Notes under the pieces: model-generated
What the model saw: the letters and a program-made list of their open reading frames with translations, nothing else
The model's database searches: none
What the model was told of the DNA's origin: nothing
Shown here: positions 928 through 64,000 of the stretch, piece after piece
How positions within the stretch are numbered: the first letter of the stretch is position 1
Layout of the letters: the number at the start of each line of letters is the position of its first letter
NCBI GenBank assembly: GCA_963792675.1
Contig: CAWBWT010000008.1
Span: forward strand, 771-64,770
Source: an uncultured Alphaproteobacteria bacterium
Lineage (GTDB): Bacteria > Pseudomonadota > Alphaproteobacteria > Acetobacterales > Acetobacteraceae
Direction: 5' to 3'
DNA length: 64,000 bases
Position numbers and translations under genes: made by a program

Positions 928-3900
928 TCAGATCCAGGTGTTGGTTCCAACCACGTTGTTCAGGGTGATGTTGCCGGTCAGCTTGAAAGTGTCGACCGTG
1001 CCACCCCCGACCTGCACGGCGTAGCTGGTCGGCGTGGCAGCGTTGCCGACTACTGTCTTCACCAGCGTGGCACCGGCGGCATAGCCGGAGAGCTGGATCT
1101 GGTCGGCCTGGGCACGGCTGAAATCCGTGATCAGGTCGCCATTCGCGTCCCCCTTGGCGAGGAAGAACACGTCGGCCCCGGTGCCGCCGGTCAGCTTGTC
1201 GGCCCCGGCCCCGCCGATCAGCGTGTCGTTGCCGGCACCCCCGCTCAGCGTGTCCGCACCCGCACCGCCGGTGATGACGTTGTCGCCAGTGTTGCCGGTG
1301 CCGGTGAAGGCGCCAGTCCCGACGAAGGTCATGTTCTCGACGTTGACACCGAGCGTGTAGGTGTTGACGAACACGTTGGCCGTGTCGGTGCCGCCGTTCG
1401 CGTTCTCCGTGATGACGTCGCCCAAGTTGCGGATGATGTAAGTGTCGTTGCCCGCGCCCCCGACCAGCGTGTCCTTGCCCGCGAGGTTTGCTCCGCCGTC
1501 GAGCGTATCATTACCCGCCCCTCCCGTAATAAAGTTGGCGAGGTTGTTGCCGGTGCCGGTGAAGTTGCCCGTTCCGGTGTAGGTCAGGTTCTCGACGAAG
1601 TTCGCAAGCGTCAAACTGGCCAGCGCCGTCTGCTCGGTATCGGTGCCGGCCCCTGCCGAACTCCACCACCGCGTCACCGACGTTGTTGATGACGTAGGTG
1701 TCGTTGCCGCCGCCGCCGATGAGCGTGTCGGCGCCGGTCGTATTCACCCCGCCGTCTAGGATGTCCGCGCCGCCGCCGCCGGTGATGACGTTCACGAGCG
1801 CATTGCCGCTGCCGGAGAAGGCGGCGTTGCCGGTGTGGGTCAGGTTCTCCAGGTTGTCGCCCAGCGTGTAACTGGTCAGAGCGGTCTGCACCGTGTCCGT
1901 CCCGCCGCCGGCCGCCTCCGTCACGACGTCGCCGATGTTGCGAACAATGTAGGTGTCGTCGCCCAGGCCGCCGATCAGCGTGTCCACGCCCACGGTATTC
2001 GCGCCACCGTCGAGCGTGTCGTTGCCGGCCCCGCCGGTGATGACATTCGCCAGGTTGTTGCCAGTCCCGTTGAAGTTGCCGGCCCCGATGAACGCCAGGT
2101 TCTCGACGTTGGTGCCGAGCTTGTAGGTCGCCAGCGTCGTCTGCACCATGTCCGTGCCGGCATTCGCCGCCTCCGTCACCACGTCGCCGACATTGTCGAC
2201 GATATAGATGTCATCGCCGCCGCCGCCGCTCATCCGGTCGAGACCGGCACCGCCGTCGAGGACGTCGTTGCCCGAACCGCCGGTCAGGTTGTCATTGCCA
2301 CCCAGGCCGAGGATCAGGTTGGCGCCGCCCACGAGTGGGGCGGTCAAGGTGTCGTTGCCGGCCGTCCCGGCCCGCACGCCCACCGAGAGCGGTGCCGACA
2401 CGTTGCCGGCCAAGTCCGCCTCAGTGATCGTCAATACTTTGTTGTAGTTGGTTGTCGGAACCGGTTTGATGATCGACGACCAGGTGCCATCGGCGCCCAC
2501 CAAGGCGGTCCCGACCGGCAACACACCGCCGTCCGAGATCGTGACCGTTGCGCCGGGCTCCCCGTGCCCAAACCCCGTGTAGCTGCTCAGCACGCCTCCC
2601 GTCGTGTCGTAGCTCACGGTGTTGACGACCGGCGCAACCGGCGCCTTGGTGTCCAGCGTGACGGTCAGCGACGCTGTGTTGGTGGTGACACCGTCGAGGT
2701 TCGGTTCGCTGGCGACAATGGTGTAAACGCCGTCCGCCAGCACAGGGGTGAACGACCAGGCTCCGGTCGCATCCGCGGTCACGGTGGCTTTAGCGACCGG
2801 GGTTCCATCCGCCAGGGAGATGGTGATGGTCACCACCGCGTTCGCGTTGCCGCTGCCGGCGATTGCCGCGTTCTTCGTGATCCGATCAATCGAGGACGCG
2901 CCGGTGTCGGAGACGAGGTGCTCCGTCACCTTAACGTCGGTCTGGACCACCTTGATCGTGACCGTGGCAACGTTGCTGGACTTCAGGAACACGTCACTGG
3001 CGACATAGGTGAACGTATCGGTCCCGAAGAAGTTCTTGGTCGGCGTGTAGGTGAAGGTGCCGTCGAGCTTGAGGGTAAGCGCGCCGTGCGCCGGGCCGGC
3101 CACGAGCTGGGCGGTCAGGCGGTCACCGATGTCCGGATCGGAGTCGTTGGCCAGCACGCCCATGGTGCTCAGCAGGGATTGGGCGATTGGCCGCACCACC
3201 GCCGGGCCGGGCTGGGCCAGGTTGATGGCGAGGGTGGCGTTTTCCAGGATCGAGTAGGAGTCGTTGTTCGCGGTCGGCGGGGTGTCGAGCGGCAGCAGGT
3301 TGATGAAGAAGGTGTCGGTGACCGACAAGGGAACGCCGGGGCCGGTATCGGTAGCCGTGACGCGGACCGCGATCTCGCCGGCGGCAACCTGGCTGCCGTC
3401 CGGGGCGATGAAGCCGCCCGCGCCGGTCGAGAACTCCCCATTGATGATGGCGCCGGTGATTGCGGTCTGGAAGGACAGGCCGACCGAGGCGAGGCTCGAC
3501 CCGTCCGCCAGGGTTGCGTTGTATGTCAGTGCAGTAGAGGCGGTCTGCGCGTCGGTGAAGATCGAGGAGAATGGGGAGAAGAAGTCGAACTTCTGGCCGA
3601 TCAGCGCCGTCGTGTTGGCGATCCCGTTGAACTGAGTGGCGAACGCGATGGTCGGCGCGGTGTTGACGTTGCCGGGTTCCGTCACTGCCACGGTCGGAGC
3701 GGAGATGACGGTTTCCGTGTAGCCCTTGCCGTCGACGTAGCTGGCCTTCACCCGGATGCCCAGGGCGCCTTCGAAGAAGGACTGGACTGTGTAGGTGGAA
3801 CTGGTCGCACCGGCGATGTTGACCCACTCGCCGCGCAGGATGTCGTTCTCCTGCCACTGCCAGGAGATCGGCGTGGTGATGCCGTCGGCATCGGTGACGG

Positions 3901-6900
3901 CGTTGATGCCCGCCACCTGGCCGCCGAGCACGCTGGCGGTCAGTGTCTGGCCGACATCGACCCGAACCGTGGGATCGAGGCCGCCGCTCTCGGTGATCGA
4001 GGGCGTGCTGACGGGGACTGCGTCGTAGTTGGCTTGGGTGATCGCGTTGTGGTCGACGAAGCGGCCATCGGACGACGTCAGGATATGTCCCTGGGAGTCG
4101 ATCGACACGGTGATGTCGCTGAATTGCAGCCGCTCGATGTTGCGGATGCGGTCGGTGCCGTCATCCACCCCGGCAAGCCCCTGGGGGTTGCCGCCGACGA
4201 CGACGCTGACACCGGTATGCTTGATGGTGAGGAACCCTTCGGCATCCACGGCGGGGCCGAAGCCCGCCCCGATGAACGGGCCGAAGAACCCGTCGCCGTA
4301 GTTTGCGAACACGTCATTGAAGACGGCGGTATCGACGTTGGCGGCATTGACCTTGCCCGCGATCAAATTGCCATTTGCATCGACCCCCGTCACCGTGCCG
4401 TTGCCATTCGGATCATACTCGATCTGTCGAATGATCTGTCCGCCGGCCGTGTAGCTGGTCAGCGCCACGTGCAAAAACGCGTCGCCGTCGATGATGTCGT
4501 CGCCGCCGCCGCCCTTGATGACGTCGTTGCCGCCGCCGCCCAGGATGATGTTGCCGCCGTCGAACGACACTGGACCCGGTGCGAAGAAGCCGGACAGGCC
4601 GGTGATCAGGTTGACGTTGTCGAGTTCGTCCTTGGTGGCCAGCGCCCGGGTGTTGTTGTCGCCGGTGATGATGTCGTCGAAGGCGGAGCCGCTGGCGCCT
4701 TCCGTGTGCTGCCAGATGTCGCGGATCGAGTCCTCGCCGCCGTTGGGGGCGATAAACTCCTTGCGGTTCATGTCCTCGCTGACGCCGTGCACCGCGTTCT
4801 CGTACGATCCCCAGTCGAAGCCGAGGCCGCCGATGAACTTGGTGAAGCTGCCGCCGCCGACCATGATGTCGTCGCCGGAGAAGCCCTTCATGATGTCGCC
4901 GCCGGCCACGCCGCCGATCATCACGTCGTTGCCGCTATAGAGGGGCTGGCCGCCGGTGGGGGCACCGGAGTCGCCGAACATGAGCTGGCCTTGGCCGCCC
5001 TTGCTCTCGAGCCAGTCGTCGCCCTCGCCGCCGATCAGCTGGTCCTGGCCTTCGTTGCCGATGATGATGTCGTTGCCGAGGCCGCCCATGATGACGTCGT
5101 CGCCGCGGCCGCCCTCGATGTAGTCGTTGCCGTCGCCACCGAAGATGTTGTCGATGCCGTCGCCGCCATAGATGGTGTCGTTGCCGGCGTCGCCGTGCAG
5201 GGTGTCGTCGCCCTGGCCGCCGATGAGGGTGTCGTTGCCGTCGCCGCCGAACAGGAAGTCGTTGCCGCCACCGCCATTGATGATGTCGTTGCCGCCGTCG
5301 CCATAGACGGTGTCGTCGTCGGCCGCACCGGCAAGCAGGTTGTCGTTGCCCGACGTGCCGCCGAGCACGATGGTGTTGCCGAGGAAGTTGTTCTCGCCCA
5401 CGAACTCGAGCTGATGGGTGCCGTCGGCCAGGGTGTTGATGGTGACGAGCGGCTGGCCGCTCGGGCTGTGCAGCCACGTCTTGCCGGTCGGGTCGATGAT
5501 CTTCCCGCTAGCGTCGAAGTAGTCGCTCGCCTCGATCGTGTATTCCGGCGTGAGAAACATGTTGCCGGGCAGGTGCAGCATATGGTTCGGGTCGTTGCTG
5601 GGATCGGTGTTCGCCCGGATCAACTGCGCGAGCGAGCTGTCCTGCAGCAACTCCTCGTAGTCCATGCCCTCGATGCGCGGCAGGTAATACAGCCGGTCGC
5701 CGTCCTGCAGCGCCTCGAGCTGGGTGCGGAAGATGTATTCGAACGTGGAGCCGAGCTGGCCGCCGAACAGGCTGATCTTCTCGGCCAGGCCGCCGATCCA
5801 GGCGTCGACGGTGTCGAGGCCGGTGACCGAACCGGTGCTCCACGCCGCCGGGTTGCCGGACGCGTCATGGATGGCGCGGGCGTCTTGCGTGTTGTTGGCG
5901 TAAGTGCCCTGGCTGTTGAGGAAGTTGTAGGCATCGAGGTCGAACGTCGCGCTGCCGAGCGTGCCGTTGGTGACGAGCGTCGTCGCAGCGTTGCGCTTGC
6001 CGGCGAGGGTGGTTGCGGCGGTGATCGTGGAATGCGTGCCGTAGGCAGCGATGAAGTTGATCAGCAATTCCGGGTGCTTGATCTGGCTGCCGAACTGGGC
6101 CCAGCTCGCGTAGGCCTTGAGTTGCGCTTCGCCGGTCTGCGAGTAGAGCTGGTTGCGCAGCAGGTTGAGCGGAGCGACGCCGGTGTCACGGCCGCGGGCG
6201 ATGTTGAGTGCCGGGAGGTCGAGCGGCAGGCCGAGCAAGTTATTGCGCAGCGAGCCGGTGACGAACTCGTCGATCGAGTTGCTGACCTGGTTGACGGTGC
6301 CGAGCACGAGGTCGGCCGTCATGTTGGGGTCGCTGGCGAACAGCGTCGGGTTGGTGAAGGCGGTGATCAGGCCCTCTTCGGTCATGACCGGCTGGCCGTT
6401 GGCGCCGATCACCGGCCGGCCGTCCGTGCCGAGCTGGTAGACGTTGACGTTCTCGTCCAGCATCGAATGGCCGAAGCGGTAGACGACGTTGGCGAACTCC
6501 GACGTGATGGCCGGGTTGATGTGGACGTTGACGCCGGCCGCCACGTGGATCGAGGGCGCCACGTAGCGGGCGAACTCGTCGAACACGATGTGCTGGTATT
6601 CGGTCTCGGTGCCGAACTTGGCCGCCTGGAACAGGCGCTCGCCGTTCCACTCGTTCGCGGCGATGATGTGGATCGGGTTGCCGTTGGCGTCGACGTCGGG
6701 CTTGCCGTTAGTCAGGGTCTGCTTGGTCAGATCGACGCCGGGCAGCACCCAGTTGCCGGCAAAGCCGGTGTCGCCCTTGTTGAGCTCGGCCTGGATGGTG
6801 GCCTTGTTCATCGCCAACAGCCGGTCGTGCTCGGAGTGGAAGATGTCCTGCACGGCGGTCAAGCCGATGTTCTCGTTGGCGCGGCCGTCACCGGCAGCGT

Positions 6901-8209
6901 AGTGCGCGTCGAGCAGCTTGCCGTCGTAGAAGCCGGCGGGGGGGAGGGTGCCGGCGGACACGGTGTCGCTGCGCGTCAGCGGAACGCCGAAGTCGTCGGT
7001 GGGCGAGGCGGAGTGCGCCATGTCGTTGATGAAGGCATGGCCGGTGCGCGCCGCCGTGTATCCGGCAGCGCCGGCCACAAACATGGGGATCGGGTGGGCA
7101 AGGTTGCCCTCGACCAAGCTGGTCGTGCCGTCTGGGTGGGTCACGACGAGCTGCGGCATCCCGTTCGGGCCGGCGATGAAGTTGCCGTAGTCGTCGGTCG
7201 CGAGCAGCGGCACGTTGCCGACGTCGGCGTCGGTCAGCAGGATGCCGAGCTTTGTCGCCGCCTGGAACTTGACGTCGGCCCAGGTCGCCATGCCGTCGGT
7301 GCCATTGGCTTTGGCTTGGCCCAGCAGGGCGCCGCTCGAATGCAGCTTGCCGTCGGCGCCGGTCATGTAGTCGCGCAGGAACACCTGGTGCGACGGATCG
7401 GATGCGTAGGTCTGGCTCTGGTCGACGAACGGCGAGGTCTGGTTGGTGTAGGCGCGGATGTCGTCCGCGGTTCCGAGCTTGCCGTCCGGGCCGGGCTGGT
7501 TGGTGGCGCGTGTCAGCACCATGAAGTTGGAATGTCCGCCCACCACATACAAAGGGTCGTCCGGCGTCAGAGGGATGTAGACCGTGCCGTTGCCGCCCTT
7601 GTCGATCATATCGAGGCCGTGGTCGAAGAACTGGCCGAAGAAGGTGAACCAGCTGTTCGACGGCGCCGACAGGCCGTTATCGGGAGTGACGTTGTTGATG
7701 AACAAGCTTTGCGCGAGGCCCGGGATGGCCTGGCTGCTGGCCGAGGCGCTGGTCGGCGTGGCCTGATTGCCGCCGACGATGTCGTCCGCCGTGCCGAAGA
7801 TTTTGTCGACGCCAGCCGTGGTCGTGTTCTGGTAGCCGGCGCCCAGAAAGCTTGCCTGCTGAAGTTGCGCAGCCACCGCCGCGGGGTTGTTCGCGGTCTG
7901 GTCGGAGATCAGGTTGCTGATCATGCGCGGCTGCGCGTCGACCACGAACCCGCTGGTCTGAGCATAGGTCGTGTTCGGCTGGCCGGGGCCGAACGACTGC
8001 GCCGTCTGGAACACCGGATCGGTCACCGTCGGGAACACCTCATCGGTCGAGCCGAAAGCGGTCTGGCCTGGGACTAGGTTGTTGCCGGTGCCGGACACGG
8101 TGCGCAACCCAAACGACAGTAGCGGGTTCACCGGCGGCTGCCCGGCCTCCGCCATCTTGATCTGGGTCAGGATGTAGTCGAGGTCGAGGCGGGTGAGCTT
8201 GACGGCCAT
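928..8209 (-). pseudogene. Giant secreted animal-type haem peroxidase fused to RTX Ca-binding, cadherin/Ig-like and modular repeat domains (MopA-like). One frame disruption near 1655-1665, possibly a sequencing indel.
   Basis: ORFs 1511..8209 (2232 aa) and 928..1677 (249 aa) are one gene. The 85-aa module ...TYVINNVGDAVVE breaks off and resumes as SAGAGTDTEQTALASLTL... in the other frame. Peroxidase signatures: WFTFFGQFFDHGLD (7610-7645) and YRFGHSMLDENV. A GGxGxDxhx nonapeptide run lies at about 5000-5440. A cadherin-like module (VLANDSDPDIGD...FTYTPTKNFFGTDTFTYVASD) and Ig-like modules follow. The C-terminus has DVFFLAKGDANGDLITDF...LSGY, a T1SS-type domain. Confidence 0.85.
1130..2370 (-). 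repeat. About five tandem coding modules of roughly 255 bp (85 aa) in the C-terminal part of the peroxidase/RTX gene
   Basis: The block recurs as GNNLANVITGGAGNDTLDGGAN..DTLIGG.GDDTYIVRN.GDVVTEAA.GGTDTVQT.L.SYTLG.N.ENL...G. I counted 85 residues between equivalent positions. Boundaries are approximate. Confidence 0.7.
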
Positions 8210-27613: not shown

Positions 27614-28768
27614 GTGCAGATGAACCCGCTCCGCTTCGAGTTCGTCACCTCGGGCGAGCGCCTGTCCGCCGTCGCCGAGCCGTGGGACGCGCTATGGTCC
27701 GGCACGCACGCCGGCGCATTCCAAAGCCATCGCTGGATCTCCGCCTGGTGGTCGAGCCTCGGCGACGGCGCCGCCGAGCTGCTGGTCGCCATCGCCTGGG
27801 ACCGCGAGGCGGCGGTCGCGGTCCTGCCGCTGGCGATCGAGCGGCGCCGCGGCGCCCGCGTCCTTGTCTGGGCCGGCGAGGCCGTCAGCGACTATTGCGA
27901 CGCCCTGGCCGCCGACAACCCGGCCGGGCACCAGGCGCTGGCGCAACTCTGGGGCAAGGTCCGGGACGGCTGCGGCGCCGACCTGATCACCCTCAAGCAG
28001 GTCCGCCCCGACGCCAAGATCCGGCCGCTGCTGATGCTGCCGGCCGGCGGCCATCGCGGCCTCAGCCTGCGCGAAGACGGCGAGTCCAGCTTCCAGGTGG
28101 TCAACCACTGGCCGAACGGCGCCGCCTATTTCCGCAGCCTCAACAAGAAGGGGCGCAACAACCACACCCGCGGCAAGCGCATCCTCGGAGAGTCGGGCCA
28201 CCTCGTCTCGCGGCGCATCGACCCGCACGAGGCCGGCCCCGTGCTCGACCGACTGTTCGAGCTGAAGGCGCGGTGGGTCGCCGCCACCGGCAGCCAATGG
28301 CCGCTGCTCGCCAACCCGGCCGCCGGGCTGCGTCCCTACGGCGAAGCGCTGGCCGGCATCGGCCGCTTGGCCCTGTTCGTGCTCGAGATCGACGGCGTCG
28401 TGGTGGCCGCCACCATGAACATCCTCGACGGGCCGCGGATGCTGGCCTTCGTCGCGGCCTACGACCTCGCCTATGAGCGCGCCTCGCCGGGCACCATTCT
28501 GATGGTCGATTACGCGATGTGGGCCTTCGACGCCGGCATCCGCGAGATCGACTATCTGCGGGGCGAGCAGCCGTATAAGCTCCGCTTCGCCAACGCCCGC
28601 ACCGCCTTGTCCGGCTATCACGGCAGCCAGACCGCGAAGGGCCGCGTTCTTTACGCGCTCTACCGGGCCAAGAAGCGGTGGGACCGGCGGCGCGACCGTC
28701 CGGAGCGAGGGGAGCAGGTCTCTGCCCTGCACCCGCTGGGGCCGGCGGCCCCAGACCCGCTCAACTAG
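27614..28768 (+). CDS. GNAT-fold acyltransferase, CelD/BioF2-like (FemAB-related)
   Basis: N-terminal ...LSAVAEPWDALWSGTHAGAFQSHRWISAWW... and a C-terminal acetyltransferase-like region (...IDYLRGEQPYKLRFAN...). The last roughly 15 codons lie inside a repeat element. Confidence 0.65.
   Translation: MQMNPLRFEFVTSGERLSAVAEPWDALWSGTHAGAFQSHRWISAWWSSLGDGAAELLVAIAWDREAAVAVLPLAIERRRGARVLVWAGEAVSDYCDALAADNPAGHQALAQLWGKVRDGCGADLITLKQVRPDAKIRPLLMLPAGGHRGLSLREDGESSFQVVNHWPNGAAYFRSLNKKGRNNHTRGKRILGESGHLVSRRIDPHEAGPVLDRLFELKARWVAATGSQWPLLANPAAGLRPYGEALAGIGRLALFVLEIDGVVVAATMNILDGPRMLAFVAAYDLAYERASPGTILMVDYAMWAFDAGIREIDYLRGEQPYKLRFANARTALSGYHGSQTAKGRVLYALYRAKKRWDRRRDRPERGEQVSALHPLGPAAPDPLN
28722..28765. 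repeat. 44-nt GC-rich palindromic repeat (REP-like), copy 1
   Basis: ctgccctgcacccgctggggccggcggccccagacccgctcaac matches 62406-62449 at 40 of 44 positions. It contains the hairpin ctggggcc-N3-ggccccag. Confidence 0.75.
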
Positions 28769-49390: not shown

Positions 49391-50395
49391 ATGCATGAAC
49401 ACGCACATGGCGGCATGAACCATCAAGCGACCGACGGCCTCCGCCTGCCGCTCGGCCACCTGCCCGGCTCCCGCTACCCCGACCCGCGCATCGAGGTGCT
49501 CGACCGCCGCTTCACCGCCCGCCAAGGCAACGCCGCCGTCGAGCGTATCGCCACCGGCTTCCGCTGGGCCGAGGGACCGGTCTGGTTCGCCGACGGCGGC
49601 TACCTGATCTGGAGCGACATCCCCAACAACCGCATGATGCGCTGGCTCGAGGACGACGGCCACGTCAGCGTGTTCCGCACCCCCAGCCACCACACCAACG
49701 GCAACACCCGCGACCGCGAGGGCCGCCTCGTCAGCTGCGAGCACGACACCCGACGCGTCACCCGAACCGAGCTGGACGGCAGCATCACCGTTCTGATGGA
49801 CGCGTTCTCCGGTAAGAAGCTGAACGGCCCCAACGACATCATCGTCGCCTCCGACGGCGCCGTCTGGTTCACCGACCCCGGCTACGGCATCGACGGCCCC
49901 TACGAAGGCCACGCCGCCCCGCACGAACTGCCCTGCAACGTCTACCGCCTCGACCCCGCCTCCGGCGCCGCCACCGTCGTCGCCGGCGACTTCACCCGCC
50001 CCAACGGCATCGCCTTCTCGCCCGACGAGCGCCTGCTCTACATCGTCGACACCGGCATCACCCATGGCGGCCCGTCGCACATCCGCGTCTTCGACGTGGA
50101 CGGTCCCCGCCTCGCAAACGGCCGCGTCTTCGCCGAGAACTTCGCCCCGGGCATGACCGACGGCATGCGCACCGACACCGAAGGCAACGTCTGGTGCAGC
50201 ATGGGTTGGAGCGACCCGGCCGAGGACGGCGTCCGCTGCTACGCCCCCGACGGCGACCTGATCGCCAAGATCCACCTGCCCGAAGGCTGCGCCAACCTGT
50301 GCTTCGGCGGCAAGAAGCGGAACCGCCTGTTCATGACCGCAAGCACCTCGGTCTACGCCCTCCACCTGAACCGCTGCGGCGCCCTGCGGCCCTGA
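49391..50395 (+). CDS. SMP-30/gluconolactonase/LRE family protein
   Basis: ...EGPVWFADGGYLIWSDIPNNRMMRW..., NGPNDIIVASDGAVWFTDPGYG and PNGIAFSPDERLLYIVDT. These are classic six-bladed lactonase motifs. Confidence 0.85.
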   Translation: MHEHAHGGMNHQATDGLRLPLGHLPGSRYPDPRIEVLDRRFTARQGNAAVERIATGFRWAEGPVWFADGGYLIWSDIPNNRMMRWLEDDGHVSVFRTPSHHTNGNTRDREGRLVSCEHDTRRVTRTELDGSITVLMDAFSGKKLNGPNDIIVASDGAVWFTDPGYGIDGPYEGHAAPHELPCNVYRLDPASGAATVVAGDFTRPNGIAFSPDERLLYIVDTGITHGGPSHIRVFDVDGPRLANGRVFAENFAPGMTDGMRTDTEGNVWCSMGWSDPAEDGVRCYAPDGDLIAKIHLPEGCANLCFGGKKRNRLFMTASTSVYALHLNRCGALRP

Positions 50396-58191: not shown

Positions 58192-58268
58192 TGGCGGACC
58201 CGAGACGATTCGAACGTCCGGCCTTTGCCTTCGGAGGGCAACGCTCTATCCAGCTGAGCTACGGGTCC
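58192..58268 (-). tRNA. tRNA-Arg (anticodon CCG), 77 nt including the encoded CCA
   Basis: Folded by hand from GGACCCGTAGCTCAGCTGGATAGAGCGTTGCCCTCCGAAGGCAAAGGCCGGACGTTCGAATCGTCTCGGGTCCGCCA. Acceptor stem 7 bp, D-stem GCTC/GAGC, anticodon stem TTGCC/GGCAA with loop CTCCGAA, T-stem GGACG/CGTCT, T-loop TTCGAAT. Confidence 0.95.
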
Positions 58269-59371: not shown

Positions 59372-59578
59372 ATGCCCTTCGGCGCCGACACGCCCCGCCC
59401 GCAACTCGGCACGACCGAGACAATCCACGTCGACAGCCGCACCGTCGCCTGCGACGGCGGTGACGGCCCCCTCGGCCACCCCCGCGTCTGGCTCCACATC
59501 GACCACCAGCAGACCTTCTGCCCCTACTGCTCCCGCATCTTCGTCCTCAACGAGGGCGCCCACGACGATGGACACTAA
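59372..59578 (+). CDS. Small zinc-finger (zf-CHCC-like) protein
   Basis: 68 aa with C..(D)GG...HPRVWL...CPYC. This class of small protein commonly precedes polA in alphaproteobacteria (recall). It overlaps the polA start by 11 nt. Confidence 0.65.
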   Translation: MPFGADTPRPQLGTTETIHVDSRTVACDGGDGPLGHPRVWLHIDHQQTFCPYCSRIFVLNEGAHDDGH

Positions 59579-62394
59579 CGCGGGTCAGGCGCCGCCGGCC
59601 CCAGCGGGTGCAAGGACAGAGCCCTCGGAACACCTGATCCTCATCGACGGATCCGGCTTCATCTTCCGCGCCTTCCACGCCCTCCCGCCCATGACCCGGC
59701 CCGACGGCACCCCCGTCAACGCCGTCTTCGGCTTCACCAACATGCTCGCCCGCCTCCTCCAGAATCACGAAGGCACCCACCTAGCCGTCGTGTTCGACGC
59801 CGGCCGAACCACCTTCCGCAACGACCTCTACGACCGCTACAAAGCCCAGCGCCCCGAGCCCCCGCCCGAGCTCGTCCCCCAATTCGCCCTCGTCCGCGAC
59901 TGCACCGCCGCCTTCGGCGTCCCCGCGGTCGAGCTCCCCACCTGGGAAGCCGACGACCTCATCGCCTCCTACGCCTGCGCCGCCACCGCCGCCGGCTGGC
60001 GCACCACCATCGTCTCCTCCGACAAGGACCTGATGCAGCTCATCGGCGACCGCGTCGTCATGCAGGACCCGATCAAGCAAAAACCCATCGGCCCCGCCGA
60101 GGTCCTGGAGAAATTCGGCGTCCCCCCCAGCCTCGTCGTCGAAGTCCAGGCCCTCATGGGCGACAGCGTCGACAACATCCCCGGCGTCCCCGGCATCGGC
60201 CCCAAAACCGCCTCCCAGCTCATCCAGGAGCACGGCACCGTCGAAGCCGTCCTCGCCGCCGCCCCCGCCATGAAACCCAGCAAGCGCCGCGACATGCTCA
60301 TCGAGCACGCCGAAGCCGCCCGCATCTCCCGCCGCCTCGTCGAGCTCGCCTGCGACGTCCCCCTCCCCCTCCCGCTGGAAGACCTCCGCGCCAAGGACCC
60401 CGACCGCCAAACCCTCACCGCCTGGCTCCACGCCATGGGCTTCCGCTCCACCGCCATCCGCCTCGGCTACGAAGGCGGCGCCCCCCCACCACCCTCGCCC
60501 GAGCCCGCCGAACTCGAAGCCCCGCCCGAACAGCCCCCCTTCGGCCCCTACGAGCTCGTCACCACCGAAGCACAACTCGCCGCCTGGATCGCCGAAGCCC
60601 GCACCGCCGGCGCCGTCGCCCTCGACGTCGCCCTCGACGGCCCCCGCGCCATGCGCGCCACCCTCGTCGGCCTCTCCCTCGCCACCGCCCCCGGCCGCGC
60701 CTGCTACCTCCCCCTCCGCCACCGCCTGCCCGACGGCGCCAACCAGCTCGGCCTCGACCCCGCCGCCCCCGAGCCCCCGCCCCCCCTGCAGCAGCTCGAC
60801 CCCGACGCCGCCCTCGCCGCCCTCCGCCCCCTCCTGCAAGACCCGGCCATCCTCAAGATCGCCCACGACGCCAAGCACGTCCTCGAAGCGCTCGCCAGAG
60901 TCGGCACCGGGGCCTCCCCGGTCGACTGCGCCATGCTCATCTCCTACGCCCAGGGCACCGGCGCCCACGGCCACGGCCTCGACGAGCTCTCCGTCAAAAA
61001 CCTCGGCCACAAGCCCACCCCGCTCGACGCCATCACCGGCACCGGCCGCGCCCGCCTGCCCATCGCCCTCGTCCCCCCCGACCGCGCCGCCGCCCACGCC
61101 GCCGAGGCCGCCGACGTCGCCCTCCGCCTCTGGCGCCTCCTCCGCCCCCGCCTCCGCCCCGCCCGCTCCCTCGCCATCTACGAGCACCTCGAGCGCCGCC
61201 TCATCCCCGTCCTCCTCGCCATGGAGCAAGCGGGAATAAAACTCGACGAAACCGAGCTCCGCCGCATGTCCGCCGACTTCGCCACCCGCATGGCCGTCAT
61301 GGAAACCGAAATCCACGCCATGGCCGGCCGCCCCTTCAACCTCGGCAGCCCCAAAGCCCTCGGCGAAATCCTGTTCGACGAAATGAAACTCCCCGGCGGC
61401 CGCCGCATGGCCACCGGCGCCTGGGGCACCGACGTCAACGTCCTCACCACCCTCGCCGAGCAAGGCCACGACCTCCCCGCCCGCATCATCGACTGGCGCC
61501 AGCTCAGCAAGCTCCGCTCCACCTACACCGAAGCCCTCGTCGCCGAGATCAACCCCGAAACCGGCCGCGTCCACACCTCCTACGCCCAAGCCATCGCCAG
61601 CACCGGCCGCCTCTCCAGCAACGACCCCAACCTCCAAAACATCCCCATCCGCACCGAGGAAGGTGCCGCCATCCGCAAAGCCTTCGTCGCCGAGCCCGGC
61701 CACGTCCTCGTCTCCGCCGACTACAGCCAGATCGAGCTCCGCCTCCTCGCCCACATGGCCGACATCCCGCCCCTCCGCGAGGCCTTCGAAACCGGCCAGG
61801 ACATCCACACCCGCACCGCGTCCGAAGTCTTCGGCGTCCCCGTGGCCGGCATGGACCCCTCGACCCGCCGCCGCGCCAAGGCCATCAACTTCGGCATCAT
61901 CTACGGCATCTCCGCCTTCGGCCTCGCCCGCCAACTCTCCATCGAGCCCGGCGAAGCCAAGCTCTACATCGACGCCTATTTTGAAAAATACCCCGGCATC
62001 CGCACCTACATGGAGCGCACCAAGGAGGAAGCCCGCATCCACGGCTACGTCCTCACCCCCTTCGGCCGCCGCTGCTGGGTCCCCGGCATCACCGAGAAAA
62101 CCCCCCACCGCCGCGCCTACGCCGAGCGCCAAGCCATCAACGCCCCCCTCCAAGGCGGCGCCGCCGACATCATCAAGCGCGCCATGGTCCGCCTCCCCGC
62201 CGCCCTCGCCGCGGCCGGCCTCCGCGCCCGCCTGCTGCTGCAGGTCCACGACGAGCTGCTGTTCGAAGCACCCGCATGCCGAAGCCGCCGCCACCGCGTC
62301 CCTGGCGCAGGACGTGATGCAGCGCGCGGCGTCGATCCGGGTGCCGCTGGTGGTGGAGACGGGGGTGGGGCTGAACTGGTCGGCGGCGCACTAA
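59568..62394 (+). pseudogene. polA: DNA polymerase I. Frame disruption near 62274-62280, about 120 nt before the stop, possibly a sequencing indel.
   Basis: 5'-nuclease N-terminus HLILIDGSGFIFRAFHALPPMTRPDGTPVNAVFGF. Polymerase motifs RVHTSYAQAIASTGRLSSNDPNLQNIPIR, SADYSQIELRLLAH, RRAKAINFGIIYG and LLLQVHDELLFEAP. After LFEAP the frame is lost. The canonical tail AEAAATASLAQDVMQRAASIRVPLVVETGVGLNWSAAH* is in the frame of ORF 61663..62394. Confidence 0.9.
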
Positions 62395-62397
62395 GCG

Positions 62398-62449
62398 TCA
62401 GGGCGCTGCCCTGAACCCGCTGGGGCCAGCGGCCCCAGACCCGCAAAAC
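62398..62449. repeat. Two consecutive GC hairpins immediately after polA. The second lies inside copy 2 of the 44-nt REP-like repeat (62406-62449).
   Basis: Hairpin 1 is tcagggc-gct-gccctga (62398-62414). Hairpin 2 is ctggggcc-agc-ggccccag (62420-62438). There is no U-tract. 40 of 44 positions match 28722-28765. Confidence 0.7.
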
Positions 62450-62481
62450 TTGCCTCTGATCCACCGATTAGAGGTTTGACA

Positions 62482-63072
62482 ATGATCGTCAATGAGGTTT
62501 TCAAACTACCTGACCTGGAGCATCGTCCAAGGTCAAATTCGCGTCCGAGGAACTTTGACCAAATGTCGGTTTTGCTATACCTAGACGCCGTAAAAGATAG
62601 CACCTATGGAATAGTGTTGCTTGGTGCCATCGGCAGCTTAATCGCCACGATGTTGGCGTTTCTCACCAAATATCTCATAGATCGGAACACACGCCTAAAC
62701 AAAGCAACCCACTGGAATTTTGGTTGGATGAGTAAATTCTGCTCAGATGACGTGGGGCATCATCCTATATACCTAACATTCGTAGCAGCCCATGTTGCAA
62801 AAATCGCTATCCAATGCACCTCCTGTATATTTTTTATCTTACTAGCCCAGAGCACCCTTGTTTACTATCCGTCCGTTTTGTTTTACATAGTTCCGGTTGT
62901 TTGTCTCTCGTTAGCAGTATTGTTTTTCATGCGTGCTGTGTCTGACTATAAGGCCCTCCGTGGCAGTTATCGTCACTGGATAGATGAGCTTGACCGTGAG
63001 GATCGTAAGGCAGTTCGCAGCCTGAAAAAAGCTACTCTCAATAACAGTCCAAATCTCATTGAGAGAGAATAA
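62482..63072 (+). CDS. Hypothetical membrane protein (about 3 TM) encoded in the low-GC island
   Basis: ATG at 62482 with GAGG 7 nt upstream (the track start is TTG 62476). A/T-rich codon usage unlike the rest of the window. TM segments: YGIVLLGAIGSLIATMLAFL, IYLTFVAAHVAKIAIQCTSCIFFILLA and VLFYIVPVVCLSLAVLFFM. I recognise no domain. Confidence 0.6.
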   Translation: MIVNEVFKLPDLEHRPRSNSRPRNFDQMSVLLYLDAVKDSTYGIVLLGAIGSLIATMLAFLTKYLIDRNTRLNKATHWNFGWMSKFCSDDVGHHPIYLTFVAAHVAKIAIQCTSCIFFILLAQSTLVYYPSVLFYIVPVVCLSLAVLFFMRAVSDYKALRGSYRHWIDELDREDRKAVRSLKKATLNNSPNLIERE

Positions 63073-63154
63073 ATGACGGTTCTTAATCGTCATCGCAGGT
63101 TGTAGCCAATCGTGAACGACAAGGAGGGACGGCTTTCTCAAACTCGCACTTAAT

Positions 63155-64000
63155 CTACCCTGCGGTTCTTTGCCTTGCGACCCATTGTGTGTGCTCCCGC
63201 GAAAATGCCAACTCCGTGTCATTGACGAAATCCGAAAACGTCTGCTCATTCTCGATTTCCACGATAGCCTCTCTAGCCAGTCCAATCTCGGTAGCCGTCA
63301 TTGTATAGCTGGATGCGAGCTCTGAATGGCGCTTGATCTGGATCCAACCGATTGCACACGTGGCAAAAACTATTACGGGTTCAAGCGGCACGAACCTCCA
63401 AGAAGGGCGTGCAATTCGGGATAGTGCCAAAATAAAAGCTACAACGTACGAAAGTACGGAAATCGCCAACCATATTTTGAATGCCCTGCGGTTCTGTCTT
63501 GCCTTCACGCTGTACCAGAGTTGTTGATCCCTGATTCGGTAATCAATATAGAAATCAACTCTCGACGATAATGGAAGCGTTCTTATCTGTCTCATTGAGG
63601 GTGTTGCTTGATCTCCTGAAACACGTCCGTGGATGTCTCCTCGCATCAACACCGGATTACTTGCCACTACATCCAGAATGCGCCCGGTAAACACCGTAAC
63701 GGCCTGCTGCTCCGAACCTACAGCATTAAACGGGTGCGCTCGCATGGCAAACCGCCAGGCTAGCGTCTTAATGGACTCTGCGCCCGCGCGTGCTTCGTAC
63801 CACTTTCGTTCTGGCGTTAGAAGAGAACGAGTAATTAGTATCGTCAGAGAAATTACGAATACAAGAGCATACCCACAGTAATAAAGTGGATCATTGGAGA
63901 ACTCTACCGAAAAAACAGATGCTAGCAAAAGACTCGCGTACTCACCACGCAGCAGCAAATGATAACTTCGCTGATAGTTTTTTGATAGCTCGTTTGAGGC
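63155..64000 (-). CDS. Tandem 2TM SLATT/DUF4231-like protein (predicted membrane effector). The N-terminus lies beyond the right window edge.
   Basis: The frame stays open upstream of the track start (63958) to position 64000 (...ASNELSKNYQRSYHLLLRGEYAS...). First 2TM hairpin: SLLLASVFSV...YCGYALVFVISLTILI, followed by ERKWYEARAGAESIKTLAWRFAMRA. Second unit: FYIDYRIRDQQLWYSVKARQNRRAFKIWLAISVLSYVVAFILAL...VIVFATCAIGWIQI, followed by ...FSREHTQWVA. The family call is from recall of SLATT/DUF4231 sequence patterns, not an HMM. Confidence 0.6.
   Translation of the reverse strand, partial: ASNELSKNYQRSYHLLLRGEYASLLLASVFSVEFSNDPLYYCGYALVFVISLTILITRSLLTPERKWYEARAGAESIKTLAWRFAMRAHPFNAVGSEQQAVTVFTGRILDVVASNPVLMRGDIHGRVSGDQATPSMRQIRTLPLSSRVDFYIDYRIRDQQLWYSVKARQNRRAFKIWLAISVLSYVVAFILALSRIARPSWRFVPLEPVIVFATCAIGWIQIKRHSELASSYTMTATEIGLAREAIVEIENEQTFSDFVNDTELAFSREHTQWVARQRTAG

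What the first reader, a model, noticed from the sequence alone, without database searches (positions are those of the whole stretch)
62450..64000. Abrupt low-GC island immediately 3' of polA, running off the window
Composition drops visibly from about 70% G+C to about 40-45% (by eye) within a few nucleotides at about 62,450. This is directly after the REP-like hairpin pair that follows polA. Both visible ORFs use A/T-rich codons, unlike every other gene here, which argues for recent horizontal acquisition. The visible content is entirely membrane proteins, one of them SLATT/DUF4231-like. No integrase, transposase or tRNA sits at the visible border, so the insertion mechanism and the rest of the cargo are unknown. 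This is the most likely place for an undescribed conflict or defence system, but only its left 1.5 kb is visible.
Basis: seen in the sequence. Interest (0 to 1): 0.7.

Follow-up and report, generated by a model that had tools for sequence, protein, structure and literature searches.

The report
Low-GC islet carrying Thoeris SLATT effector
The last 1.55 kb of the window is foreign, low-GC DNA placed right after polA; it encodes a rare small membrane protein and the membrane-disrupting effector of a recently described anti-phage system (type VII Thoeris), so it is a new example of a known kind.

Summary
G+C falls from 75.6% (62278-62445) to 47.0% (62446-64000). The rest of the window is 69.8 +/- 3.9%. 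GC3 of the two island ORFs is 0.48-0.49, against 0.86-0.95 for 31 other genes.

The border is 62446, just after a REP-like double hairpin that has a second copy at 28715.

The visible cargo is two convergent genes.
- A 169-aa membrane protein (62563-63072, +) from a very rare, unannotated family.
- A SLATT_3+SLATT_1 protein (63155 to beyond the window, -). Its full 294-aa form starts 39 nt past the window end.

Among 85 assessable loci with homologues of the SLATT protein, 72 have a ThsB-type TIR gene within 600 nt. In 58 it lies directly upstream. All 7 loci at 47% identity or more have this layout. These TIRs are 40-80% identical to ThsB proteins of type VII Thoeris, which was shown experimentally to use cADPR as its signal and a SLATT effector, ThsH.

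The island therefore most likely carries thsB-thsH, with thsB just outside the window; this is inferred, not seen.

None of 80 relatives has these genes beside polA. Synteny downstream of polA is not conserved, so no empty site can be defined. No integrase or tRNA sits at the border.

Verdict: new member of a known kind, modest interest.

The parts
59568..62394 (+). polA (context, not part of the island). It carries an apparent +1 frameshift (extra T at 62277). The true stop is TAA at 62392-62394. The uncorrected frame runs on to TGA at 62412-62414.
   Evidence: Pfam finds DNA_pol_A, the 5'-3' exonuclease and the 3'-5' exonuclease domains. A DNA alignment with 12 relatives shows a 1-nt insertion. 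The last 39 codons read correctly in the +1 frame.
62399..62445 (.). REP-like double hairpin that follows polA. It is native sequence and marks the left edge of the island.
   Evidence: A second copy at 28715-28761 is 43/47 identical. The fold of the 86-nt stretch containing it has z = -5.0. It is absent from all 172 fetched loci.
62446..64000 (.). Visible part of the low-GC island (47.0% G+C). It runs off the window. The source contig is 68,130 nt long, so at most about 4.1 kb more exists there.
   Evidence: The contig length comes from the record of P0001.
62563..63072 (+). Small membrane protein of unknown function. It is 169 aa from ATG 62563; the mechanical ORF starts at TTG 62476 and is 198 aa. 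It has 3-4 hydrophobic helices.
   Evidence: The only close homologue, P0121 (56% identity), starts at the residue that aligns with M30. Only 18 representatives match among 1.84 billion proteins. There are no significant Pfam, NCBIfam, PHROG or PADLOC matches. Hydrophobic segments are shown. It is never found next to SLATT homologues.
63155..64000 (-). thsH-like effector gene encoding a SLATT_3 + SLATT_1 (DUF4231) protein. 281 of its 294 codons are visible. The start codon lies at about 64039, outside the window.
   Evidence: Pfam: SLATT_1 8.8e-33, SLATT_3 1.6e-27, DUF4231 7e-12. NCBIfam: SLATT_3 1e-36, SLATT_1 9e-31. P0001 is a 100% identical 294-aa protein. It keeps all 55 columns that are invariant across 23 homologues. 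The AlphaFold2 model is all-helical with pLDDT 86.8.

Best explanation
A small, horizontally acquired, low-GC segment begins at 62446, directly after the native REP-like hairpins downstream of polA. Its visible cargo is (a) a rare small membrane protein of unknown role and (b) the effector gene of a type VII Thoeris anti-phage system, thsH, which encodes a SLATT_3-SLATT_1 membrane protein.

In this system a small ThsB-type TIR protein is encoded immediately upstream of thsH in the same operon. Here that position would be about 64040-64450 on the minus strand, just outside the window. ThsB senses phage infection and converts NAD+ into canonical cADPR. ThsH binds the signal and is proposed to oligomerise in the membrane and breach it, which stops the infected cell (abortive infection).

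Shown here:
- the compositional break and its position;
- the domain make-up and intactness of the SLATT gene;
- its end-to-end homology to partners of ThsB proteins from validated type VII systems;
- the strong TIR-SLATT gene linkage in homologues.

Inferred:
- that a thsB gene sits just beyond the window;
- the cADPR signal and the membrane mechanism, both taken from the preprint;
- how the segment was inserted, which remains unknown.
For: Foreign origin:
- The G+C and GC3 break is large and abrupt.
- tblastn finds no homologue of either ORF within 10 kb of polA in 80 alphaproteobacterial relatives, although the upstream hydrolase is syntenic.
- The TIR-SLATT cassette is also lower in G+C than its flanks in other high-GC hosts.

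Identity of the effector:
- Pfam and NCBIfam find SLATT_3+SLATT_1.
- 480 homologues were found, and the 120 listed all have the same architecture.

Linkage to TIR:
- The four look-ups of the closest homologues show a 136-aa ThsB_TIR gene ending 0-3 nt before the SLATT start.
- All 7 loci at 47% identity or more have this layout.
- Of 85 assessable loci, 72 have a TIR gene within 600 nt, and in 58 it is directly upstream on the same strand. Other upstream partners are also ThsB_TIR subfamilies.

Link to the validated system:
- These TIRs are 40% identical (E 5e-34) to the Pseudohongiella type VII ThsB.
- The TIR of L163 is 80% identical to the Alteromonadales type VII ThsB. Its SLATT partner has the same architecture and aligns with the window protein over residues 10-292 at 36% identity, E 2e-61.
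- The preprint reports phage defence, phage-dependent cADPR production and cADPR-induced toxicity for type VII systems.
Against: - The TIR gene is not visible. No TIR-like ORF exists anywhere in the 64 kb.
- I could not retrieve the rest of the source contig.
- No TIR hit among the best 120 of 1830 sits on a 68,130-nt contig.
- 13 of 85 homologous loci have no TIR within 600 nt. Some have a TPR-S/MAP3K_TRAF_bd protein instead.
- PADLOC-DB v2 has no model that matches.
- No integrase, att repeat or tRNA explains the insertion.
- The function of the 169-aa protein is unknown.
Confidence: 0.72

Rival explanations
1. The SLATT gene is not paired with a TIR gene here. It is either an orphan or remnant effector, or it is paired with a different sensor in the unseen DNA, for example a TPR-S/MAP3K_TRAF_bd (SLOG-like) protein.
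For: 13 of 85 assessable homologous loci have no TIR within 600 nt. The Agrobacterium plasmid locus L087 and locus L130 have a TPR-S/MAP3K_TRAF_bd gene upstream instead. The partner is invisible in this window.
Against: All 7 homologous loci at 47% identity or more have the 136-aa TIR directly upstream. The non-TIR cases are all more distant, at 45% identity or less.
Confidence: 0.15
2. The adjacency to polA is an assembly artefact. The contig comes from a metagenome-assembled genome. It could be a chimeric join at the repeated REP element (62399-62445) or within the conserved motif-C region of polA (about 62228-62278). The low-GC DNA would then belong elsewhere in this genome or to a related strain.
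For: The border coincides exactly with the end of a repeated element. A 1-nt frameshift lies about 170 nt to the left of the border, and a sharp switch of third-position C/G preference lies within about 50 nt of the frameshift (0.84 to 0.30, Fisher p = 1e-12). In two related MAGs the contig breaks 85-177 nt after polA.
Against: The closest relatives (L001, L005) show a weaker shift in the same direction in the polA tail, so part of it is intrinsic to this stretch of the gene. Large ORFs elsewhere, up to 2232 aa, are intact, so the assembly is not generally error-prone. No read data are available to test this.
Confidence: 0.12
3. The SLATT gene belongs to a reverse-transcriptase system of the DRT10 (UG17) type, which consists of a ncRNA, a SLATT protein and an RT.
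For: SLATT proteins are required partners of DRT10 reverse transcriptases.
Against: No RT-sized ORF flanks the gene on its visible (3') side; the next gene is the convergent 169-aa membrane protein, and then polA. Most homologues of this SLATT_3-SLATT_1 protein sit next to TIR genes. The upstream ORFs I checked in loci without a TIR were a TPR-S/MAP3K_TRAF_bd protein or apparently unrelated genes, not reverse transcriptases. No Rfam hit was found.
Confidence: 0.02
4. The low-GC genes are old, vertically inherited residents of this locus rather than a recent acquisition.
For: None beyond the lack of a mobility gene at the visible border.
Against: GC3 is 0.48-0.49 against 0.86-0.95 for every other gene. 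The genes are absent from the polA flank of 80 relatives. The nearest SLATT homologue is only 53% identical and occurs in unrelated contexts rich in integrases, restriction-modification and toxin-antitoxin genes.
Confidence: 0.03

Closest known systems
Type VII Thoeris (ThsB TIR + ThsH SLATT effector; bioRxiv 10.64898/2025.12.03.692087)
   Same: The effector has the same SLATT_3+SLATT_1 architecture and aligns end to end (36% identity, E 2e-61) with the partner of a TIR that is 80% identical to a validated type VII ThsB. The closest homologues sit in the same two-gene TIR-SLATT operon. Those TIRs are 40% identical to the validated Pseudohongiella ThsB.
   Different: The thsB gene is not visible here. 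The host is a high-GC Acetobacteraceae. The cassette lies in a tiny islet next to polA, with an unrelated rare membrane-protein gene convergent to it. Neither defence nor cADPR signalling has been tested for this clade.
CBASS systems with SLATT/2TM effectors (Burroughs et al. 2015 defined SLATT; this attribution is from my own knowledge)
   Same: A SLATT-domain membrane effector that is thought to oligomerise and breach the membrane on binding a nucleotide second messenger (as summarised).
   Different: No CD-NTase/SMODS gene is seen. The homologues are linked to TIR genes, not cyclases. The signal would be cADPR rather than a cyclic oligonucleotide.
Type II Thoeris (ThsB + Macro/TM effector)
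   Same: It is a two-gene TIR-plus-membrane-effector abortive-infection system. According to the preprint, some type VII TIRs cluster with type II TIRs.
   Different: The effector domain is SLATT, not Macro. The signal is cADPR, not His-ADPR.
DRT10 (UG17 reverse transcriptase + ncRNA + SLATT)
   Same: It uses a SLATT protein as the presumed effector.
   Different: No RT or ncRNA is seen here, and homologues of this protein pair with TIR genes.

Membership tests
Type VII Thoeris | Effector protein with a SLATT domain (ThsH) | tested here: met
   Pfam SLATT_1 8.8e-33 and SLATT_3 1.6e-27. NCBIfam SLATT_3 1e-36 and SLATT_1 9e-31.
Type VII Thoeris | Effector homologous to the ThsH of an experimentally validated system | tested here: met
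   Indirect, because no ThsH sequence was on hand. Locus L163 has a TIR 80% identical to the validated Alteromonadales ThsB. Its SLATT partner aligns with the window protein over residues 10-292 (36% identity, E 2e-61) and has the same domains.
Type VII Thoeris | ThsB-type TIR gene adjacent to the effector, in the same operon | not testable with these tools
   The position lies beyond the window end, and the source contig could not be fetched. No TIR exists inside the window. By analogy, 72 of 85 homologous loci have one, including all 7 of the closest.
Type VII Thoeris | TIR makes canonical cADPR on infection, and cADPR activates the effector | not testable with these tools
   This is biochemistry reported only for three TIRs in the preprint.
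Type VII Thoeris | Confers phage resistance | not testable with these tools
   Requires an experiment. In the preprint three of six tested type VII systems defended.
Genomic island (horizontally acquired) | Composition and codon use deviate from the host | tested here: met
   47.0% against 69.8% G+C. GC3 0.48-0.49 against 0.86-0.95.
Genomic island (horizontally acquired) | Absent from the same locus in relatives (empty site) | tested here: inconclusive
   The genes are absent from 80 polA loci. However, the relatives share 86% PolA identity or less, and their genes downstream of polA differ from one another, so no empty site can be defined.
Genomic island (horizontally acquired) | Mobility gene, tRNA target or flanking direct repeats | tested here: not met
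   This applies to the visible left end only. There is no integrase or transposase domain. The nearest tRNA is 4.2 kb away. No meaningful repeats were found and no dif-like site. The right end is unseen.
CBASS | CD-NTase/SMODS cyclase gene next to the effector | tested here: not met
   In the homologous loci surveyed the commonest adjacent gene is a ThsB-type TIR, and no cyclase appeared among the gene calls returned or the upstream ORFs checked. The window's own upstream flank is unseen.
DRT10 | UG17 reverse transcriptase and ncRNA flanking the SLATT gene | tested here: not met
   The visible flank holds a 169-aa membrane-protein gene and polA. There is no Rfam hit. Most homologous loci carry a TIR gene next to the SLATT gene.

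The most novel reading that the evidence does not exclude
The SLATT effector here might not be part of a standard thsB-thsH pair. It could work with something new in the unseen 4 kb or less. Alternatively, the convergent 169-aa membrane protein could itself be a new defence-associated or counter-defence membrane factor. Its family has only about 18 representatives among 1.84 billion proteins and no annotation. A related open point is whether the element entered through the 3' end of polA and left a real frameshift in Pol I.
Probability: 0.1. Interest if true: 0.5.

Novelty: new member of a known kind. Interest (0 to 1): 0.25.

Why it matters
It adds a high-GC Acetobacteraceae example of a recently described TIR-to-cADPR-to-SLATT immune module. 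This kind of gene would otherwise be labelled only 'DUF4231 domain-containing protein', and the 2023 PADLOC models do not match it. It also shows that such cassettes travel as very small low-GC islets that can sit next to core genes without any visible integrase. The practical consequence is modest: it is an annotation correction and one more natural variant (53% identical to its nearest relative) for anyone studying ThsH. The rare 169-aa membrane protein and the polA frameshift are small loose ends, not discoveries.

Tried and rejected
1. Extending the contig. Exact-protein look-ups failed for three start variants of the first ORF, for the full SLATT protein P0001 and for the frameshifted polA product. 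A JGI metagenome scan with P0001 found nothing. The source contig (68,130 nt, NCBI/ENA) is not in the position index.

2. Finding the contig's own TIR. I searched the TIR profile and looked for a hit on a 68,130-nt contig. None was among the 120 listed of 1830, so this is uninformative.

3. Empty-site comparison. Eighty polA loci were fetched, but the gene order downstream differs in every lineage.

4. The island as an XerCD/dif-integrating element. No dif-like site was found with up to 10 mismatches.

5. DNA-level source of the island. No blastn match was found in the plasmid or phage collections.

6. Function of the 169-aa protein. There is no significant Pfam, NCBIfam, PHROG or PADLOC match. 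The AlphaFold2 model is too poor to search with (pLDDT 58.6). Its one sequenced context shows only a transposase fragment and unannotated ORFs.

7. Structural relatives of the SLATT model. No solved structure matches by sequence or by fold (best E 0.06, TM about 0.2).

8. Replacement of the polA tail as proof of an attL junction. The shift in third-position preference is significant, but it is partly shared by relatives, so I leave it open.

9. Promoter, terminator and Rfam scans of the island gave nothing above chance.

Full report
OBSERVATION

The compositional break is real and abrupt. In 200-nt windows the sequence stays at 0.64-0.82 G+C up to 62399. It falls to 0.525 at 62400-62599 and stays at 0.42-0.57 to the end of the window. 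Positions 62278-62445 are 75.6% G+C and 62446-64000 are 47.0%. The 500-nt windows of the first ~62 kb average 0.698 (sd 0.039, minimum 0.544). The ten lowest 1500-nt windows all lie at the right end, from 61.5 kb on.

At codon level, GC3 is 0.48 and 0.49 for the two island ORFs, 0.92 for polA, and 0.86-0.95 for 31 other ORFs.

The hairpin pair after polA is real. The 86-nt stretch holding the pair and a third hairpin folds at -43.3 kcal/mol, z = -5.0. The pair is a repeated native element: 62399-62445 matches 28715-28761 at 43 of 47 positions, and the similarity ends at 62445. I therefore place the left border of the foreign DNA at 62446.

No tRNA is closer than tRNA-Arg(CCG) at 58192-58268. 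Neither island ORF matches an integrase or transposase family. No informative repeats or dif-like site were found.

WHAT IS ENCODED

Two convergent genes are visible.

Gene 1 is listed mechanically as 62476-63072 (198 aa). Its only close homologue, P0121 (56% identity), begins at the residue that aligns with M30. The likely gene is therefore 62563-63072, 169 aa, with 3-4 hydrophobic helices.
- A profile search of 1.84 billion representative proteins found only 18 relatives, all about 110-210 aa except one weak 631-aa hit.
- Neither it nor the seven relatives scanned match a Pfam family above threshold, and it has no significant NCBIfam, PHROG or PADLOC match.
- Its structure model is unreliable (pLDDT 58.6).
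- The one sequenced context of its homologue has a transposase fragment and unannotated ORFs, and no SLATT gene.
- None of 86 loci carrying SLATT homologues contains a relative of it.
I treat it as unrelated passenger cargo of unknown function.

Gene 2 (63155 to beyond 64000, minus strand) encodes a SLATT_3 + SLATT_1 protein that also matches DUF4231. Pfam gives 1.6e-27 and 8.8e-33; NCBIfam gives 1e-36 and 9e-31. A 100% identical 294-aa protein, P0001, is on record from a 68,130-nt NCBI/ENA contig. It has 13 residues more than the window shows, so the start codon is at about 64039. The protein keeps all 55 columns that are invariant across 23 homologues. Its AlphaFold2 model is confident (pLDDT 86.8, pTM 0.83) and all-helical. 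It has no solved structural relative by sequence or by fold.

GENOMIC CONTEXT OF HOMOLOGUES

I looked up the closest homologues (49-53% identity). In every case a 136-aa ThsB_TIR gene ends 0-3 nt before the SLATT start codon. These loci are rich in integrases, restriction-modification, toxin-antitoxin and IS genes.

A scan of metagenome contigs with a 23-sequence SLATT profile gave 80 more loci, and a viral scan gave four.
- All 7 loci at 47% identity or more to the window protein have the TIR directly upstream.
- Of 85 loci that can be assessed, 72 have a ThsB-type TIR gene within 600 nt. Of these, 58 are upstream on the same strand, 6 downstream on the same strand, 6 downstream and convergent, and 2 upstream and divergent.
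- Partners that BLAST missed are other ThsB_TIR subfamilies.
- A minority of loci have a TPR-S/MAP3K_TRAF_bd protein instead.
- In other high-GC hosts the cassette is also lower in G+C than its flanks, 0.46-0.58 against 0.55-0.71.

COMPARISON WITH WHAT IS KNOWN

A December 2025 preprint (bioRxiv 10.64898/2025.12.03.692087) defines type VII Thoeris as a TIR protein (ThsB) plus a SLATT effector (ThsH). It reports the following:
- three of six tested systems protect against phage;
- their TIRs make canonical cADPR only upon infection;
- added cADPR is toxic to cells carrying the system;
- ThsH is proposed, from AlphaFold3 models, to form membrane-spanning oligomers.

The TIR fragments listed in its Table S1 allowed a test.
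- The TIR family next to the closest homologues of the window protein is 40% identical to the validated Pseudohongiella ThsB (E 5e-34).
- Locus L163 has a TIR 80% identical to the validated Alteromonadales ThsB. Its SLATT partner has the same SLATT_3+SLATT_1 architecture and aligns with the window protein over residues 10-292 at 36% identity, E 2e-61.

The window protein is therefore a member of the ThsH family.

What cannot be shown is the thsB gene itself. Its expected position, about 64040-64450 on the minus strand, lies outside the window. No TIR-like ORF exists anywhere in the 64 kb. Every attempt to fetch the rest of the contig failed. A TIR profile search listed only 120 of 1830 hits, none of them on a 68,130-nt contig.

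PADLOC-DB v2 (2023) has no model that matches the SLATT protein. Annotation with those models would therefore leave it as 'DUF4231'.

Other SLATT-using systems are less likely. CBASS needs a cyclase, and DRT10 needs a reverse transcriptase and a ncRNA. The visible flank holds neither, and most homologous loci carry a TIR gene next to the SLATT gene.

HORIZONTAL ORIGIN AND THE LOCUS

The host is an Acetobacteraceae. The best PolA match is 86% identical, in an uncultured Acetobacteraceae MAG. None of 80 polA loci from relatives contains either island gene within 10 kb, although the hydrolase upstream of polA is syntenic. The genes downstream of polA differ in every lineage examined. The proposed empty-site test therefore cannot be done at this phylogenetic distance. 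No blastn match to the island exists in the plasmid or phage collections. The insertion mechanism remains unknown.

A CAVEAT ON THE JUNCTION

About 170 nt to the left of the border, polA carries a 1-nt insertion (T at 62277) relative to 12 relatives. This shifts the last 39 codons out of frame. Within about 50 nt of that point the third-position preference flips. C/(C+G) is 0.84 in the body of the gene, and never below 0.62 in any 40-codon window. It is 0.30 in the tail (Fisher p = 1e-12).

This could mark a recombination or assembly junction inside the conserved motif-C region, or a join at the REP repeat. However, the closest relatives show a weaker shift in the same direction, and long ORFs elsewhere are intact. 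I leave it as an unresolved rival, with about 0.12 probability that the adjacency is artefactual. It does not affect what the island encodes.

MECHANISM, WITH STATUS OF EACH STEP

- Foreign DNA starts at 62446: shown.
- A thsH-family SLATT effector is present and intact: shown.
- thsB lies immediately upstream: inferred from 72 of 85 homologous loci, including all 7 of the closest.
- The TIR senses phage and makes cADPR, and cADPR triggers SLATT oligomerisation and membrane failure: inferred from the preprint, where the signalling is experimental and the pore model is a prediction.
- The role of the 169-aa protein: unknown.

VERDICT

The system is most likely a described one, so this is a new member of a known kind. 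Interest is 0.25.

Noticed in passing
window 62228-62394 (polA 3' end): polA has a 1-nt insertion (T at 62277, GCA[T]GCC) relative to 12 relatives, so its last 39 codons are out of frame. Third-position C/(C+G) flips from 0.84 to 0.30 within about 50 nt of this point. It could be a real frameshift, a recombination scar or an assembly error.
   Followed up: partly
window about 20000-62270: The + strand GC skew grows steadily more negative, from about -0.1 to -0.35, and then vanishes at about 62270. polA (GC3 skew -0.63) and the ORF at 49391-50395 (-0.60) are extreme. Some related MAGs (L005, L001) also show very strong local skew. No explanation was found.
   Followed up: partly
window 28715-28761 and 62399-62445: This is a two-copy REP-like double hairpin, 43/47 identical. 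The hairpin core motif has no exact match in any of the 172 loci fetched from other genomes.
   Followed up: yes
window 58192-58268 (-): tRNA-Arg(CCG) sits between upstream genes and the alpha/beta-hydrolase-like ORF. It is 4.2 kb from the island border and is not an obvious integration target here.
   Followed up: no
L002 (ends 85 nt after the polA stop) and L005 (ends 177 nt after it): In two related MAGs the contig stops just after polA. In L005 the sequence turns AT-rich immediately after the stop codon. This hints that the spot after polA is variable or repetitive in relatives too.
   Followed up: partly
L088 (CP067841.1, Klebsiella pneumoniae 5.2-kb plasmid); also Salmonella and E. coli plasmids H14, H15: Small mobilizable plasmids carry a SLATT_3-SLATT_1 gene (about 37% identity to the window protein) with a convergent TIR gene. 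This is a different gene order for what is presumably the same system.
   Followed up: partly
L087 (Agrobacterium sp. MA01 plasmid) 3539-5882; L130 1273-3456: Here the SLATT_3-SLATT_1 gene is preceded by a 425-447-aa TPR-S/MAP3K_TRAF_bd protein instead of a small TIR. This is an alternative partner for the same effector family.
   Followed up: partly
L081 765-4093 (JGI Ga0597045_0044434): The only close homologue of the 169-aa membrane protein sits beside a DDE transposase fragment and four ORFs (329, 72, 65 and 195 aa) with no Pfam match; the three scanned against PHROGs also have no match.
   Followed up: partly
window 1511-8209 (-): A very long intact ORF of 2232 aa. It was not examined.
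   Followed up: no
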